From an uncultured archaeon (GTDB taxonomy: Archaea; Asgardarchaeota; Lokiarchaeia; Sigyniarchaeales; SOKP01): DNA of 35,421 nucleotides. The notes below the pieces were generated by a model that saw nothing but the letters and a program-made list of their open reading frames with translations, made no database searches and was not told the DNA's origin. The stretch covers positions 1 to 35,421 of the forward strand of contig CAZWEM010000049.1 in the NCBI GenBank assembly GCA_964632315.1. The letters run 5' to 3'. The translations under genes were made by a program, and so were the position numbers. Below, in pieces: positions 20,253 to 29,721 of the stretch (position 1 is the first letter of the stretch; each line of letters begins with the position of its first letter).

Positions 20253-20573
20253 TTGATTGTAATATTTGTCGATGATATGGAAAACTTTCTAAATTTTTTA
20301 GATCGCCGAATTATGAATGAAATTTTTTATGAATTTAGAGAAGTATCAATAGATCATTCCGAAAATTTTTCTATTGAAATTATTCTTCATTTTCTTGCTA
20401 AATCTGAAGGATGTTTAATGTTGTATGAAACTAAACAGCTAATTACAAAATCATCCACAAGTCAACTAGATAAGCTGGTAATAGAAGCCCTGCAAGAAAT
20501 CTTTAAAAATGTTGATAATGCAATAAACCTTGTAAAAGGAAAAATTAGAGAAATATTTTTATCTTATTCTTGA
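20253..20573 (+). CDS. Hypothetical protein
   Basis: 106-aa ORF with TTG start 7 nt after the previous stop; overlaps the aIF-2 gamma stop convergently. Confidence 0.6.
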   Translation: MIVIFVDDMENFLNFLDRRIMNEIFYEFREVSIDHSENFSIEIILHFLAKSEGCLMLYETKQLITKSSTSQLDKLVIEALQEIFKNVDNAINLVKGKIREIFLSYS

Positions 20574-22126
20574 ACGACTACTTCTCCATAACCAATTAAG
20601 CGATATCTTCTATTAATAATTCTTGAAATGGCAAAGATGAAATTTTCAGGTACACATATTGGAGGATTTAAAGAAAGAACATAAGTATTTTTGAGTATTT
20701 TCGTAACGATACCAGCAGCTTTTTCTGTACCTACAACTAATAACAATTTTTCATTATGTCTTAATTCATGAACCTTAATTTGGTCTTCTGATCCAATAAC
20801 TCGATCTAGCAAATTGACTTTTAACTCTACTTCTGAAATTATAGGAGGTAATGATTCAGGACGTCCTACTAGTTGTCCAATCAAATGGTCTCCTTTAGTG
20901 ATAGCGGGGTCTAGTTCTGTTCCTAATCCAATCAATCCACCCGGTCTTGCATTATCTAGTACATTGCTTCCTTGACTAATACTGACAATTTTTGATTTAA
21001 TAGGTTGATAATCATTTTTCAGACGCAATCCTGGACGAATTTCTATCTTCTCTCCAATTTTTATCGTTCCTTTTAAGACAGACCCTCCAATAACGCCTCC
21101 CTTTAAGTTTTCTATTACTGTACCAGGTCGGTTAATATCAAAAGAACGGGCGATTAAAAATTGAAAATCATCGTTTTCATCTAATTCGGGTGTGGGAATA
21201 ATTTCTTCGAATGCACGGACTACTAATTCGATGTTTGCCCCAAAGACAGCTGAAATTGGAATGATTGGAGCTTTTTCTGCAACAGTTCCTTTAACAAATT
21301 CTTTTATTTGCCGGTAATTTTCTTGAGCTTGTTCTTTTGACACTGCATCTATCTTATTTTGAATTATGATCAAATTTTCAATACCTGCGATGTTTAGAGC
21401 GGCCAAATGTTCCCTTGTTTGAGGCTGGGGACATTCCTCATCTGCAGCAACCAATAGACATGCTCCATTCATCAAGGATGCACCGCTTAACATTGTTGCC
21501 ATTAAAATTTCATGTCCTGGTGCATCTACGAAAGAAATATTTCTTTTAAACTCTAAGTTATCTCCACATTTTCCACATATATCTCTTGGTTTTCCCTTCT
21601 GTCTAGCTTTTTCAGCCATATAATATGTTAAATATTCATCGCAAGAAGGACAGTATAAAATTGAAGCATTTGAATAACCGAGCTTTATTGAAATCCCTCT
21701 TTCCTTTTCTTCCGAGTGCCTATCCGTCCAATCACCAGTCAGAGCTTTTACCAAGGTGGTTTTTCCATGATCAACATGTCCAACTAATCCAATATTGCAT
21801 TCTGCTTGTTTTTTAATCAATTCCTTAAGTTTTGATTTTTGACTAACTTTTGGTTTTTCTTCTTCACTACCACTAGAATCCGTCCTAATTTCGGTTTTTT
21901 GCTTACTGGAATCAACTTTTTTTGATCCTTTAAACTCATCTACAATCTTTTTAGCACTTTCTATGTACTTTTCTGCTGATGAGCTTCCAATTCCTTTTAT
22001 ATTAAGATCTAGTAATTCTTTTTTTGAAATTTCGGCTAATTTCTCTATTGTGTCAAATCCAGCATTTCTTAATCTTTCTGCAGTAGCTTTTCCTATGCCC
22101 GTAATATCTTCTAAATCTTTTGCCAT
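20564..22126 (-). CDS. eif2g: Translation initiation factor aIF-2 gamma with N-terminal HhH extension
   Basis: NIGLVGHVDHGKTT, RGISIKLGY, zinc knuckle CPSC...CGKC, DAPGHE, QTREH, NKID, RSFDINRPG, RLIGYG; ~106-aa N-terminal addition. Confidence 0.95.
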   Translation of the reverse strand: MAKDLEDITGIGKATAERLRNAGFDTIEKLAEISKKELLDLNIKGIGSSSAEKYIESAKKIVDEFKGSKKVDSSKQKTEIRTDSSGSEEEKPKVSQKSKLKELIKKQAECNIGLVGHVDHGKTTLVKALTGDWTDRHSEEKERGISIKLGYSNASILYCPSCDEYLTYYMAEKARQKGKPRDICGKCGDNLEFKRNISFVDAPGHEILMATMLSGASLMNGACLLVAADEECPQPQTREHLAALNIAGIENLIIIQNKIDAVSKEQAQENYRQIKEFVKGTVAEKAPIIPISAVFGANIELVVRAFEEIIPTPELDENDDFQFLIARSFDINRPGTVIENLKGGVIGGSVLKGTIKIGEKIEIRPGLRLKNDYQPIKSKIVSISQGSNVLDNARPGGLIGLGTELDPAITKGDHLIGQLVGRPESLPPIISEVELKVNLLDRVIGSEDQIKVHELRHNEKLLLVVGTEKAAGIVTKILKNTYVLSLNPPICVPENFIFAISRIINRRYRLIGYGEVVVQE

Positions 22127-22238
22127 GATCAATTAAAATTAATATATTTTTTACAAGAATCTTCTTATTTACTTAATCTTTAATGAAAAATATAGATTTA
22201 CTTTTTTTAGTTTTATTAAGTTAGGAAATGAAGAATCC

Positions 22239-22586: not shown

Positions 22587-24758
22587 TTGATTTGGATGGT
22601 TAAGAAAAGATATATTCAAGTGGGGATGCTTCTATTTCTGATATCACCAATAATATTAACTTATTCTATTAACCTTCAAAATCAAGTTTTTACCCCGAAT
22701 GGGAAAGACCCTAATATAGCGCCCACTGAAGCGCAACTTAATATAGATTCATCAATGATTCCGATGTTTGATAATTCTTCACTTAATTCACTTTGGGAGA
22801 ATTCCAATATTGAAATGTTAATTATATCACCCGATAACTCTAATTTCATAAACGAATTGATACCTTTAGCCGATTGGAAAAATAGTAAAGGTGTAAAAAC
22901 CATAATACTTAGCAATTATTCTTCTTATCAAGGTAATGATGATGCAGAAAGAATTAGGCATATGATCAAGGATTATTACGAAAAGTATAAAATTCGGTGG
23001 GTCTTATTAGCTGGAGATACCGATATCATTCCTATCAGATACGTTTATAATCCAGATGTGGTAGTTGTAGGGGAAGGAGAATCAGAATATTCAAGTTGGG
23101 ACGATGTATACAAACCCACTGATTTTTATTATGCATCTCTTGGAGGAACATGGGATCAAGATGGAGATGGAATCTACGGAGAAAGCCCTGTTTATAATGC
23201 GAATGGAAAAGATGAGATTGATTGGACTCCCGAAGTTTATGTGGGCAGATTTCCTGCAAGCAATGCTATTGAACTTCAGATAATGGTGAATAAAACTTTG
23301 AAATATGAATCCAATCCGTACATGGGAACTTGGATGAACCGAATGCTTTTAGCTGGAGGAATTTCTTCATATTTTCCAGCTGAAGATGAAGCGCGATTAA
23401 CACAATTTATTTGGCAGAATTATACACTTGATAATATGCGTTTTACACACTTGGCGAGAAATACCTCCAGTTTTTATCTGGTAGATCCTCCATCGCCCAA
23501 TAATCTAAGCGTTTTGGATCAATCATCATTTACGAATGAATTTAATAAAGGATATTCAACCGTTATTATAGCAGGACATGCAGATCCAACGATTATCAAT
23601 GATGCGAGTGGCACGACTTTTTTTACGAACATGAATGCACTTAATACTGTCAATTATAACATGCCATCCTTATTTTATGCAGATGCGTGCACTACATCTT
23701 CCTATGATATGGGAGATAATAGTATAGGAGAACGAATGATTAAACGACAAGATGCTGGAGCGATAGGTTATATTGGAGGTTTACGCGTTACTTGGTATTT
23801 GGATAATGATACCAATCTGGAAAAACTCAATCGAGCTAATGCAAAGCTCTTTTGGCAACAATTTTTTGAAGAAAAAAAGTATCAACAAGGAAAAGCATTA
23901 TATGACTCGAAAGTGGCGTACATGAATAGTGACTATTTCACTCAGGAAACTTCTATTGAATATGAATGGCAGAGAAAAAACATCTTATCCTACAATCTCC
24001 TAGGTGATCCAGAGGTAGATATCTATACAGATAGTCCAATAAGGGCTTCTGATAGTTTTCCAAAAGATATTTACGGGGGACAGATTGTAAATTTTACAAT
24101 ATATGATATTAAAGATAATGTTGTGCCTTATGCTCGTGTGAATTTAATTTCAGCTGATGGAAAATATTTTACAGCATACGCAAATGAACAAGGAAATGTT
24201 ATATTTCGCATTCCTTCCATACCATATGAAAATTATAACATCACGATCACAGGACATAACCTTAAACCAACGTATTTTAATTGTACAACCCTTAAAGATA
24301 CTACAGTTCCAGAAATGATGAATTTGGAGCCAATTCCAACAAAATTAACTGTATTTGATAATGTTCGATTTAAAGTTGAAACAAGGGATAACCAATCTGG
24401 AATCGAAAGCGCGTTTATATTACTTTCAAATGACAATTTCAAGACCTACAGAATATATAGAGAAACTAATTCGATTCTTGAAAATGCTTCTAATTTTACT
24501 ATAAATATTGATAAATTGGATCCTGGAAATTATAGATATGCGGTGCTATTAAGAGATTATAGTAATAATACTAAATTATATTTTGAAACTTCATATCAAT
24601 TTAACATAGAGATACCAATTTCAATGATTATTCTTATAATAATTTCTATCGTTGTAGTTGGATTAGTTGGGCTGATCATTCTTAATCATTTTTTCAAATT
24701 TAGAACAAGAAAAAATAAATCAAGCTTGGATTATCCTTCAGAGAATTATACCATTTAA
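22587..24758 (+). CDS. Peptidase C25 (gingipain-family) cysteine protease, membrane-anchored
   Basis: WKNSKG, VLLAGD, TDFYYA, VGRFP, catalytic His (AGHA) and Cys (DACTTS), GAIGYIG, NLLGDP; N-terminal signal and C-terminal TM helix. Confidence 0.88.
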   Translation: MIWMVKKRYIQVGMLLFLISPIILTYSINLQNQVFTPNGKDPNIAPTEAQLNIDSSMIPMFDNSSLNSLWENSNIEMLIISPDNSNFINELIPLADWKNSKGVKTIILSNYSSYQGNDDAERIRHMIKDYYEKYKIRWVLLAGDTDIIPIRYVYNPDVVVVGEGESEYSSWDDVYKPTDFYYASLGGTWDQDGDGIYGESPVYNANGKDEIDWTPEVYVGRFPASNAIELQIMVNKTLKYESNPYMGTWMNRMLLAGGISSYFPAEDEARLTQFIWQNYTLDNMRFTHLARNTSSFYLVDPPSPNNLSVLDQSSFTNEFNKGYSTVIIAGHADPTIINDASGTTFFTNMNALNTVNYNMPSLFYADACTTSSYDMGDNSIGERMIKRQDAGAIGYIGGLRVTWYLDNDTNLEKLNRANAKLFWQQFFEEKKYQQGKALYDSKVAYMNSDYFTQETSIEYEWQRKNILSYNLLGDPEVDIYTDSPIRASDSFPKDIYGGQIVNFTIYDIKDNVVPYARVNLISADGKYFTAYANEQGNVIFRIPSIPYENYNITITGHNLKPTYFNCTTLKDTTVPEMMNLEPIPTKLTVFDNVRFKVETRDNQSGIESAFILLSNDNFKTYRIYRETNSILENASNFTINIDKLDPGNYRYAVLLRDYSNNTKLYFETSYQFNIEIPISMIILIIISIVVVGLVGLIILNHFFKFRTRKNKSSLDYPSENYTI

Positions 24759-24823
24759 ACTTAACGAAAGCCTATAATAAAATTTAATTACTAGTCCTCA
24801 CTATCTCTAATTACTCTTAACCA

Positions 24824-24848
24824 GATAAGGGAAGCATTTTATCATAAA
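24824..24848 (+). promoter_or_regulatory. Putative BRE/TATA promoter of the 5S rRNA precursor
   Basis: Purine-rich GATAAGGGAAG followed by TTTTATCATAAA (24837-24848), ~35-45 nt upstream of the precursor stem. Confidence 0.4.
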
Positions 24849-24883
24849 GTAGCCAATCTTATCAAAAGGTGAGAAATGGTGAT

Positions 24884-25076
24884 TTTAACCACAAAAATTC
24901 CAAGCATTTCGCATAGCGCCGGAACCATCCGAACCCGGAAGTTAAACTTGGTGACGTTGAAAACAGTACTGCAATTAAGATTTGTGGGAATTTTCAAACT
25001 GTAAGTTTGCTTACGGTCATGGTTTCCAAGGAAAATACCCGGTCTCGCTATTTATACGGAAGTTTTTGTGGTTAAA
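24884..25076 (+). repeat. Inverted repeat forming the precursor processing stem around the permuted 5S rRNA
   Basis: TTTAACCACAAAAATTCC (24884-24901) pairs with GGAAgTTTTTGTGGTTAAA (25058-25076): 18 bp with one bulged G. Inner helix ATAGCG (24913-24918) pairs with CGCTAT (25046-25051). Confidence 0.88.
24925..25044 (+). rRNA. rrf: Circularly permuted 5S rRNA gene (3' part 24925-25005, UUUG linker 25006-25009, 5' part 25010-25044)
   Basis: Hallmark CCGAACCCGGAAGTTAA, loop E CAGTA/GAA and helices IV-V come first; the usual 5' segment CTTACGGTCATG...TACCCGGTC follows. All five 5S helices can be paired by hand. Exact ends are inferred from the processing motif. Confidence 0.88.
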
Positions 25077-25084
25077 GCGCGATA

Positions 25085-25127
25085 ATTTTGTTTTATTTAG
25101 ATTTAAACTGTTTTGATAATTTTTTTA
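25085..25127 (+). terminator. T-rich tract, possible terminator of the 5S precursor
   Basis: ATTTTGTTTTATTT...TTTTTTT just downstream of the processing stem; weak evidence in an AT-rich genome. Confidence 0.3.
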
Positions 25128-25151
25128 AATTATCCATAATAATTGTAGATT

Positions 25152-25694
25152 ATGCTTGAAAAGTCGAAAGTGTACTTAATAGCGATAAAAAAGTATTGGA
25201 TTTTTATATTCGCTGTAATCGTAATAGCAATTTCTTTTGCTAATTTGCCAGTTGCCATATGGATCACTATTATTGCGATTATCGTGTATCTCGCAAGTTG
25301 GATCCCTTCGATTTTATTCTCACGTAATTTTAAAAAGTTCATGAAAGATTATAAGACTTTTGATGATATCACGCTATCCAAAAAAATCAGAAAGCCATTA
25401 AATAAAATTCAAGAACACATGTTCATTTTATCACAAAAGCAAACTAATAAAGATTGGGTTATAATCTATATCAATAAACATTATCAATTCTATAATGAGA
25501 GCATAATTAAGAAATATAAAGCACTTTATAATAAAGGTTTAGGAGAAAAAGAAATTCTAGAAAATTTTAATGATTCATACATTAAAACTCGACCTGAAGT
25601 AAAAGCTATAGAAGAAATTTTAATTAAGACGGATCGGATAGAGGAACGAAGCATTTCTGTTAAAGAATATAGAGATAAAAAACGATTTTCTTAA
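25152..25694 (+). CDS. Hypothetical membrane protein
   Basis: Two N-terminal hydrophobic helices followed by a basic soluble domain. Confidence 0.7.
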   Translation: MLEKSKVYLIAIKKYWIFIFAVIVIAISFANLPVAIWITIIAIIVYLASWIPSILFSRNFKKFMKDYKTFDDITLSKKIRKPLNKIQEHMFILSQKQTNKDWVIIYINKHYQFYNESIIKKYKALYNKGLGEKEILENFNDSYIKTRPEVKAIEEILIKTDRIEERSISVKEYRDKKRFS

Positions 25695-28112: not shown

Positions 28113-28634
28113 GTGCCCAAGAAGTTTATTTTAAAGATTTTGCTTGCCGGCGATGGTGGGGTCGGGAAAACTACTTTACTCCATAGATTCGTAGAGGGGA
28201 AGTTCAGTGCTGAGACTAAGATGACGATTGGCGTAGAATTTTTCTTAAAAGAAACACAAGTTGACGGACAACAATGTACTCTCCAATTATGGGATTTTGG
28301 TGGACAAGAACGGTTCAGATTTTTGCTCGAAAGTTATGTCCTCGGTGCTAAAGGGGCTTTATTACTATTTGATTTAACTCGACCGATGACCTTAGATAAC
28401 CTAGATCAATGGGTTGGAATCGTTCGCAAGAGCGATCCTAATTTACCTGTCATATTTTTAGGCACTAAGAATGATTTAACAGAAGAAATTATGATAAATG
28501 ACGAGTATGCCGAGATAATAAAAGATCAATTGAATCTAGTTGAATTTCTTAGAGTCTCCAGTAAAACAGGTGAAAATGTACAACAAGCGTTTGATCTCTT
28601 GTCAGAGACAATTTTAAGTCGTCAAAATTACTAA
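28113..28634 (+). CDS. Rab-like small GTPase (Ras superfamily)
   Basis: G1 GDGGVGKTT, TIGVEF, G3 WDFGGQERF, G4 GTKND, G5 SSK; no C-terminal Cys. Confidence 0.93.
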   Translation: MPKKFILKILLAGDGGVGKTTLLHRFVEGKFSAETKMTIGVEFFLKETQVDGQQCTLQLWDFGGQERFRFLLESYVLGAKGALLLFDLTRPMTLDNLDQWVGIVRKSDPNLPVIFLGTKNDLTEEIMINDEYAEIIKDQLNLVEFLRVSSKTGENVQQAFDLLSETILSRQNY

Positions 28635-28652
28635 TTTGGCTGATTTTTAAAA

Positions 28653-29090
28653 ATGATAGAAAATCTAATTATACTAGATTCAAATTTCATTCTATTACCC
28701 TTTCAGTTCAAAATTGACTACCTAAAAGAGATCCGGGAATATTTGGTTGGTAAAACCTCTTTCATAGTATATCAGCAAATAATGGATGAGCTAAAAGCTA
28801 AAGAAAATCGATTTCCAAATAAGACAAGGTTCAAGAGGGAATTAGATGCGGGATTAACTTATCTAAATCACAATAAAAATCTTTATACATTTATATTTGA
28901 TGATGAGAAAAAAGAACAGTCTGAAACGACAGATGATTTCTTAATTAGAAAATGCAAGTCACTGAAGAGTGAAGAATCTCGCGTGTATTTAGCTACAAAT
29001 GATAAAGAGCTACGGAAAAAGGCGATTGATATTAAAATCTTTTCAATTTTTATGCGTCAAAAAAAGTTTATTGATGTGGAAGGTTTTTAA
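28653..29090 (+). CDS. PIN-domain protein (Fcf1/Utp24-like)
   Basis: IILDSNFI, IMDEL, TDDFL, LATNDKELRKK acidic PIN motifs. Confidence 0.85.
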   Translation: MIENLIILDSNFILLPFQFKIDYLKEIREYLVGKTSFIVYQQIMDELKAKENRFPNKTRFKRELDAGLTYLNHNKNLYTFIFDDEKKEQSETTDDFLIRKCKSLKSEESRVYLATNDKELRKKAIDIKIFSIFMRQKKFIDVEGF

Positions 29091-29187
29091 AAGAAAACTT
29101 TTATGTTATTTACAACTTGATTAATTATTAGTTTAATAGAAATTGTAAATGTTCTTATTGTAGAAAAACTAGATTGGGGGTAGCTAT

Positions 29188-29721
29188 ATGCCAAAAGGTA
29201 AGGTCTTAAAGGTTGTAATAAGCGGAGATGGTGGTGTTGGTAAAACCACGCTATTACATCGATATATAGAAGGAAGATTTATTGTAGCTACTCAAATGAC
29301 AATAGGGGTTGAATTTTTCCTTAAACAGCTTGAAGTCGATGGAAAAAAGATACTGCTTCAAATATGGGATTTTGGAGGTCAGGAACGCTTTCGGTTTCTA
29401 TTAAAAAATTATGCGAGAGGAGCAAAAGGAGCACTTTTTTTATTCGACCTTACCAGGCCAATGTCATTAGAAAAAATTGAGGAATGGTTGGATATATGTA
29501 GGATTGACGATCCAAGTGTTCCAGTCTTGTTAATCGGATCAAAATTAGATATGGTTGAAGAAATGTTAATTAATGAATCTTACATAGAAGAAGTAAAAGA
29601 AAAATATAGTTTATTTGATTTTTTAAAAGTCTCGAGCAAAACGGGGGAAAATGTAGAATTAGCGTTTCAAAAGATTGGAGCTGAAATTGTAAGAAATATA
29701 GATTCACGTAACATATTATAA
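29188..29721 (+). CDS. Rab-like small GTPase (Ras superfamily), paralog 2
   Basis: GDGGVGKTT, TIGVEF, LQIWDFGGQERFR, YARGA, GSKLD, SSKTGENV; no C-terminal Cys. Confidence 0.93.
   Translation: MPKGKVLKVVISGDGGVGKTTLLHRYIEGRFIVATQMTIGVEFFLKQLEVDGKKILLQIWDFGGQERFRFLLKNYARGAKGALFLFDLTRPMSLEKIEEWLDICRIDDPSVPVLLIGSKLDMVEEMLINESYIEEVKEKYSLFDFLKVSSKTGENVELAFQKIGAEIVRNIDSRNIL

What the first reader, a model, noticed from the sequence alone, without database searches (positions are those of the whole stretch)
24884..25076. Processing stem with a bulge-helix-bulge/loop motif predicting a 120-nt circular 5S rRNA
Seen in sequence: an outer 18-bp stem (24884-24901/25058-25076), then a 6-bp helix (AUAGCG 24913-24918/CGCUAU 25046-25051), a 3-nt bulge UCU (25043-25045), a 4-bp central helix CCGG/CCGG (24919-24922/25039-25042) and unpaired AAC (24923-24925) on the opposite strand. 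Both bulges lie 3' of the central helix, which is the geometry the archaeal splicing endonuclease recognises; the inner helix is weak, so this is a relaxed BHL form. Established: EndA cuts after the second bulge nucleotide and RtcB ligates. Inference: cuts at AA|C (24924/24925) and UC|U (25044/25045), then ligation, give ...ACCCGGUC^CCAUCCGAACCCGG..., a well-formed loop C and a circle of exactly 120 nt. The mature 5S would be either a covalently closed circle or reopened at the UUUG loop.
Basis: partly seen in the sequence, partly recalled or inferred. Interest (0 to 1): 0.9.

Follow-up and report, generated by a model that had tools for sequence, protein, structure and literature searches.

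The report
Splice stem around permuted 5S gene
This Loki-type Asgard archaeon writes its only detectable 5S ribosomal RNA gene back half first, inside a stem shaped like the cut signal of the tRNA-splicing enzyme, so cutting at two exact points and rejoining would rebuild a normal 5S as a 120-base ring; relatives support the cut points, but no RNA data were available to show the joining.

Summary
Observation confirmed base for base. 24925-25044 is a circularly permuted 5S rRNA gene, the only 5S-like locus found in this Promethearchaeia (Loki) genome. All 87 family loci parsed are permuted and carry a 4-bp helix, 3-nt bulge and outer helix. Two breakpoints exist: loop C (31 loci, as here) and loop B (56). 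The predicted junction of each type is the sequence the other type encodes unbroken. Of 272 end pairs, the predicted one scores best against conventional 5S. The genome encodes an (αβ)2 EndA with the crenarchaeal loop, RtcB, uL5 and uL18. 21 loci carry 30-31 nt BHB-shaped inserts, and six relatives carry one in the aIF2γ P-loop, which implies splicing with ligation. Loop-B-type permutation recurs in other Asgard families; the sister family has ordinary genes. Odds: cut as predicted 0.92, ligated 0.85, ring is the ribosomal form about 0.55. No paper found. The scan noted permuted Asgard 5S before on other DNA. Closest precedent: Thermoproteus circular SRP RNA.

The parts
24816..24873 (+). Upstream hairpin, probably the 5' leader of the precursor (role unknown; a DNA palindrome is not excluded)
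   Evidence: Folds at -11.9 kcal/mol; similar hairpins with different sequence in four relatives. Transcription not shown.
24884..24901 (+). Outer processing stem, 5' arm
   Evidence: median 23 distal stem pairs in the predicted folds of both types
24902..24912 (+). Side loop; a small hairpin in most loop-C-type relatives, degenerate here
24913..24918 (+). 5' strand of the 6-bp helix next to the bulge
   Evidence: Pair probability 0.74-0.99; three adjacent pairs kept in all 31 loop-C loci
24919..24922 (+). Decoy CCGG: copy of the helix III 3' strand that forms the 4-bp central helix in the precursor
   Evidence: tracks its partner strand across relatives
24923..24925 (+). Unpaired AAC; predicted EndA cut between 24924 and 24925
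   Evidence: cut position inferred from the established +2 rule
24925..25005 (+). 3' part of 5S rRNA encoded first: loop C, helix III 3' strand (24935-38), loop B, helix II 3' strand, helices IV-V, helix I 3' strand (24998-25005)
   Evidence: RF00001 partial hit 22.9 bits; folds
25006..25009 (+). UUUG tetraloop joining the native 3' and 5' ends of 5S (caps helix I)
   Evidence: 4-nt loop across the 87 loci, UUCG in 46
25010..25044 (+). 5' part of 5S rRNA encoded second: helix I 5' strand, loop A, helix II 5' strand, loop B, helix III 5' strand (25039-42) and two loop C bases
25043..25045 (+). 3-nt bulge UCU; predicted EndA cut between 25044 and 25045
25046..25051 (+). 3' strand of the 6-bp helix
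25058..25076 (+). Outer processing stem, 3' arm

Best explanation
The locus is a stand-alone, circularly permuted 5S rRNA gene whose flanks are an EndA processing signal. Steps: (1) a precursor with leader and trailer is transcribed (inferred); (2) leader and trailer pair, and the leader's decoy CCGG takes the place of the true helix III 3' strand, giving a 4-bp helix with a 3-nt bulge on one side and a loop on the other (structure supported by covariation); (3) the (αβ)2 EndA cuts at 24924/25 and 25044/45 (positions supported by comparison, reaction inferred); (4) the true helix III forms, holds the two ends together in loop C, and RtcB joins them (inferred); (5) the result is a 120-nt ring with normal 5S sequence and a UUUG cap on helix I. 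The 5S is in effect the excised intron that is kept. The confidence given is for steps 1-4. That the ring stays closed in the ribosome I put at about 0.55 overall.
For: Only 5S-like locus found in a 99.5% complete genome, which encodes uL5 and uL18. 87 of 87 parsed family loci are permuted with the same geometry; central helix 4/4 in 86; spliced length 119-123 nt, or 150-151 with an insert. Two breakpoints validate each other's junction. In loop-B loci, kept bulge positions are invariant in 56/56 while discarded ones vary. Best junction of 272. RNAalifold finds the motif unaided, with two-sided changes in all three outer pairs and one central pair. In-silico splicing raises the median score of the 87 loci from 28.9 to 50.7 bits and the model span from 56 to 105 positions. 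EndA α and β subunits and RtcB are present; the α subunit aligns without gaps to the solved EndA chains 3p1z_B and 3ajv_B across the crenarchaeal loop, and Asgard EndAs are reported to be (αβ)2 with that loop (PMC5829648). Six relatives have a 29-30 nt BHB-shaped insert in the aIF2γ P-loop that breaks the frame or adds a stop, so cut-and-ligate splicing is needed there. Precedent: T. tenax SRP RNA (PMC4731332).
Against: The motif is a relaxed form with no inner helix. In folding models it is usually not the favoured fold: median probability of the central helix 0.06 (loop C type) and 0.02 (loop B type), median 2.0-2.5 kcal/mol above the minimum. Exact sequence repair is also predicted by cleavage without ligation. 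The covarying sequences are relatives, so they are not independent.
Confidence: 0.85

Rival explanations
1. Ring is only an intermediate: after ligation a nuclease opens the UUUG loop, giving an ordinary linear 5S, as with permuted tRNAs.
For: Permuted tRNA precursors are cleaved and religated into the correct order (summarised in PMC4267664); P. furiosus 23S is circularised and re-linearised by excising helix 98 (PMC12918454). The window's cap is UUUG, not the very stable UUCG.
Against: There is no spacer to remove: the cap is 4 nt across the 87 loci, UUCG in 46, and short caps, often UUCG or UACG, recur in other Asgard families. E. coli lives on a 5S whose native ends are joined by a 4-nt connector (PMC7283268). 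T. tenax SRP RNA and many archaeal 23S rRNAs stay circular.
Confidence: 0.25
2. Cut but not joined: EndA trims the precursor and the ribosome uses a linear, permuted 5S with a nick in loop C.
For: Brown-algal mitochondrial 5S is permuted in the final product (PMC4267664). E. coli tolerates a 5S opened in loop C when tethered to 23S (construct CH84). Sequence repair does not by itself need ligation.
Against: RtcB is present in this genome and in 57 of 60 genomes searched. EndA ends are RtcB substrates (established). 21 loci also carry an intron-like insert and two carry two; without ligation these would give a 5S in several pieces.
Confidence: 0.1
3. The stem is an ordinary leader-trailer helix trimmed by other nucleases, or the locus is a rearranged pseudogene or assembly artefact.
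For: The motif is not the favoured fold in most loci. The genome bin has 8.6% contamination and 119 contigs.
Against: A permuted-5S model hits 114 of 127 family genomes, nearly always once, including single-contig genomes. 5S helices covary. The exact 3-nt bulge is kept at two different breakpoints.
Confidence: 0.04

Closest known systems
Permuted, circular SRP RNA of Thermoproteus tenax (Plagens et al. 2015, PMC4731332)
   Same: Universal non-coding RNA gene in rotated order; leader and trailer form a BHB motif; EndA cleavage; ligation restores a conserved loop; mature form circular.
   Different: Here the RNA is ribosomal; helix I is kept and capped rather than lost; the trait spans a whole family and more of the phylum; two breakpoints coexist; nothing here is shown on RNA.
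BHB processing stems of archaeal pre-16S and pre-23S rRNA, and circular 23S in ribosomes (PMC12918454)
   Same: rRNA excised from a long leader-trailer stem by EndA and circularised by RtcB.
   Different: Those genes are collinear and the junction lies outside the mature core. That paper states this route is not used for 5S. Here the junction is inside conserved loop C, so joining would build the functional sequence.
Permuted mitochondrial 5S rRNA of brown algae (Valach et al. 2014, PMC4267664)
   Same: 5S gene permuted, helix I closed by a hairpin, poorly found by the standard model.
   Different: That RNA stays linear with ends at the three-way junction and is permuted in the final product; no splicing signal is described. 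Here the break is in loop C or loop B and lies in a BHB-type motif.
Permuted tRNA genes (Cyanidioschyzon merolae, cited in PMC4267664; Thermofilum pendens, from my own knowledge)
   Same: 3' half before 5' half; BHB at the new ends; circular intermediate.
   Different: tRNA circles are reopened and a spacer is removed (own knowledge). Here the native ends are joined by only 4 nt.
Circular 5S forms in Halobacterium and Sulfolobus (PMC12558985)
   Same: Circular 5S molecules exist in archaea.
   Different: They come from collinear genes, have variable junctions and are read as degradation products; here a single precise junction is predicted.

Membership tests
5S rRNA (RF00001) | Reaches the Rfam gathering score as encoded | tested here: not met
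   22.9 bits against a cut-off of 38; expected for a rotated gene
5S rRNA (RF00001) | Conserved motifs and length once put in normal order | tested here: met
   120 nt; 49.6 bits over model positions 7-104 of a profile of 55 conventional 5S genes. RF00001 itself could not be run on the reordered sequence.
5S rRNA (RF00001) | Three-arm fold with covarying helices | tested here: met
5S rRNA (RF00001) | Present in the large subunit with uL5 and uL18 | not testable with these tools
   Both proteins are encoded; binding not tested
Canonical bulge-helix-bulge motif | 4-bp central helix with a 3-nt bulge on the 3' side, closed by an outer helix | tested here: met
Canonical bulge-helix-bulge motif | Second 3-nt bulge closed by an inner helix | tested here: not met
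   No pairing next to AAC; relaxed form only
Relaxed BHB/BHL substrate of (αβ)2 EndA | Host encodes a two-subunit EndA with the crenarchaeal specificity loop | tested here: met
   PMC5829648. Residues matching A. pernix K44 and F50 are present; their role is from my own knowledge.
Relaxed BHB/BHL substrate of (αβ)2 EndA | Cleavage after the second bulge nucleotide on both strands | not testable with these tools
   Indirect support from variation and junction score
Permuted RNA genes restored by EndA and ligation (Thermoproteus SRP type) | Rotated gene order, no collinear copy found | tested here: met
Permuted RNA genes restored by EndA and ligation (Thermoproteus SRP type) | Junction-spanning reads and circular mature RNA | not testable with these tools

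The most novel reading that the evidence does not exclude
In this Loki family, and probably in many Asgard lineages, the working 5S rRNA of the ribosome is a covalently closed ring of about 120 nt made by the tRNA-splicing enzymes from a permuted gene. The breakpoint can lie in loop B or loop C among close relatives, and short BHB introns come and go in the same gene.
Probability: 0.55. Interest if true: 0.9.

Novelty: new variant of a known kind. Interest (0 to 1): 0.8.

Why it matters
5S rRNA is treated as a linear RNA that archaea process without EndA (PMC12918454). A permuted gene that needs splicing to build loop C would make ribosome assembly depend on the tRNA-splicing enzymes, in the archaea closest to eukaryotes. 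It explains why 5S could not be predicted in closed Heimdallarchaeum genomes (PMC8813620): a 3.08 Mb single-contig genome of matching size carries a permuted copy. It gives a one-PCR test for an obligatory circular rRNA. The two interchangeable breakpoints and at least five insert sites offer a natural series for studying how permuted genes and BHB introns arise.

Tried and rejected
A ring-specific pattern (cap plus both junctions) found 0 metagenome contigs. A pattern spanning both junctions found 65 contigs, all conventional 5S genes of other organisms and none RNA-derived. Rfam at gathering threshold and ARAGORN found nothing in the window. Conventional 5S hits in two family genomes (G085, G015) look bacterial and sit beside a permuted copy in the same bin; I read them as contamination. 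Other cut registers (0, +1, +3) score lower, though +3 is close (47.9 against 49.6 bits). In one search I mislabelled helix III by one base; one search has the corrected values. My blind motif search failed or gave wrong top hits for about half of the distant or intron-bearing loci, so I count only the clear ones. The RtcB and 5S trees show the two types interleaved but cannot tell repeated switching from lateral exchange; one gene and a 120-nt RNA give weak deep support. Nine literature searches found no report of permuted Asgard 5S or archaeal 5S introns; subscription journals are mostly not covered. The window's own aIF2γ has no intron.

Full report
Observation. The segment 24925-25044 is 120 nt. 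The region folds better than 200 of 200 shuffles. Two limits apply. No inner helix stacks on the central helix, so this is a relaxed motif with one true bulge. The central helix (P 0.56) also competes with mature helix III (P about 0.42).

What lies inside. The 120 nt are a 5S rRNA gene in rotated order: the 3' part (24925-25005), a UUUG loop (25006-09) closing helix I, then the 5' part (25010-25044). RF00001 gives only a partial hit of 22.9 bits, and it is the only hit in the genome. Against a profile of 55 conventional 5S genes the genomic order scores 32.0 bits. The reordered form scores 49.6, the best of 272 start/end pairs, at exactly 24925/25044. uL5 and uL18 are encoded. The host is a Promethearchaeia (Loki) archaeon: a loop-C-type pattern matched 30 records in the GTDB species collection, titled as Asgard or uncultured archaea, several with contig lengths equal to those of family genomes.

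Relatives. A model of the permuted gene hits 114 of 127 genomes of the family. All 87 loci parsed are permuted. In 31 the break is in loop C, as here; in 56 it is 16 nt later, in loop B. All have a central helix (4/4 pairs in 86), a 3-nt bulge and an outer helix. Cutting after the second bulge base gives 119-123 nt, or 150-151 when an insert is present. The junction predicted for loop-C loci is what most loop-B loci encode unbroken, and the reverse. In loop-B loci the kept bulge positions are invariant (56/56), while the third base of the 3' bulge is U, A, G or C and the second base of the 5' bulge is A, C or U. That pattern fixes the +2 register there. RNAalifold predicts the motif unaided, and all three outer pairs and one central pair change on both sides; these sequences are kin, so the counts overstate independence. 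Folding energy alone does not favour the motif in most loci, so co-transcriptional folding or enzyme binding must be assumed.

Wider distribution. The sister family, which includes single-contig genomes of 4.4 and 6.0 Mb, has ordinary 5S genes; three other Asgard families also pass the Rfam cut-off. Clear loop-B-region permutations with a BHB-type motif occur in at least eight other families, shifted by one base either way. One is a 1.4 Mb genome and one a 3.08 Mb genome, which I take to be Odin and Heimdallarchaeum from size alone. The loop-C break is thus a minority form, probably derived. On an RtcB tree the two types alternate among sister genomes with high support, and rings 96-98% identical occur in either frame. 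Repeated switching or lateral exchange of the core could explain this. Because CCGG is self-complementary, one leader decoy can pair with either strand of helix III, which would make the switch cheap (inference).

Machinery. The genome encodes two EndA subunits and RtcB. The α subunit aligns without gaps to PDB chains 3p1z_B and 3ajv_B (A. pernix EndA, from my own knowledge) across the crenarchaeal loop; Asgard enzymes are reported as (αβ)2 with this loop, which is linked to relaxed substrates (PMC5829648). 21 of the 87 loci carry a 30-31 nt insert, 20 with a 4/4 central helix, and +2 removal restores the sequence of insert-free relatives; removal is inferred. Six relatives have a similar insert in the aIF2γ P-loop that destroys the reading frame unless cut out and ligated. 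This is the best indirect evidence that ligation works on such motifs in this genus.

Mechanism. The precursor folds with the decoy in place of helix III. EndA cuts both strands. True helix III then forms and brings the ends together in loop C, and RtcB seals them. Shown here: gene order, motif, conservation, register and enzyme genes. Inferred: transcription, cleavage and ligation. For the mature form, the cap is 4 nt across the 87 loci and UUCG in 46, there is no spacer to remove, and E. coli grows with a 4-nt connector at this place (PMC7283268). I put the closed ring at about 0.55, reopening at the cap at 0.25 and a nicked linear RNA at 0.10. No RNA data could be examined.

Comparison with what is known. 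It works like the permuted circular SRP RNA of Thermoproteus tenax (PMC4731332) and like BHB excision of pre-16S and pre-23S rRNA (PMC12918454). It differs from brown-algal mitochondrial 5S, which stays permuted and linear (PMC4267664), and from the variable 5S circles of Halobacterium and Sulfolobus (PMC12558985). I found no paper on permuted Asgard 5S; one states that 5S could not be predicted in its Asgard genomes (PMC8813620). The scan's earlier notes describe the same thing in other genomes. They are unchecked AI notes; I used them only as leads, and one later check priced the closed-ring claim at 35 in 100, lower than my estimate.

Verdict. A real feature, first reading supported, new variant of a known kind. 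Interest 0.8.

Noticed in passing
L006, L007, L024-L026, L028, L029, L031, L049, L051, L054, L072, L081, L087-L089, L092, L093, L095, L096, L098 (5S genes); L288, L289: 30-31 nt BHB-shaped inserts inside 5S rRNA genes at five or more sites (loop C twice, helix IV twice, helix I); two genomes carry two. No report of archaeal 5S introns was found.
   Followed up: partly
L315, L317-L320, L322 (aIF2γ genes of relatives); window 20564-22132 (-): A 29-30 nt BHB-shaped insert splits the P-loop codons of aIF2γ in six same-genus genomes; the window's copy is intact.
   Followed up: yes
window 20564-22132 (-): aIF2γ carries an N-terminal helix-hairpin-helix domain (aa 5-62) ahead of the G domain; the extension is shared by same-genus relatives.
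   Followed up: no
L087 (G132): The loop C insert contains a local copy of the helix III region, a hint that short duplications seed these inserts.
   Followed up: no
L006 versus L003: G006 (loop-B type) and G016 (loop-C type) share an identical upstream stretch and a 98% identical ring but have different leader and trailer cassettes, suggesting recent recombination.
   Followed up: partly
L005 (G032): This genome's 5S is closer to another genus (92.5% to G104) than to its RtcB sister (79.8%): lateral transfer or misbinning.
   Followed up: partly
L188, L189 (G225, G247): Conventional-order 5S genes in another Asgard family with an insert of about 30 nt after loop B; possibly introns.
   Followed up: no
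L331 (G041): A divergent permuted 5S in another family of the order seems to break at the tip of loop C, a third breakpoint.
   Followed up: partly
window 24783-24790 and 25085-25130: A TATA-like element upstream of the leader hairpin and T-rich runs after the stem may be promoter and terminator; inferred from sequence only.
   Followed up: no
window 22587-24758 (+) and 25152-25694 (+): A C25 (gingipain-like) peptidase gene upstream and a 180-aa gene without Pfam match downstream; similar neighbours were seen beside the 5S gene in several relatives.
   Followed up: no
window 28113-29721 (+): Two Ras-family small GTPase genes flank a PIN-domain gene.
   Followed up: no
whole genome G000: ARAGORN finds only 29 tRNA genes, many with introns, in a 99.5% complete genome; more may be hidden by introns at unusual positions.
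   Followed up: no
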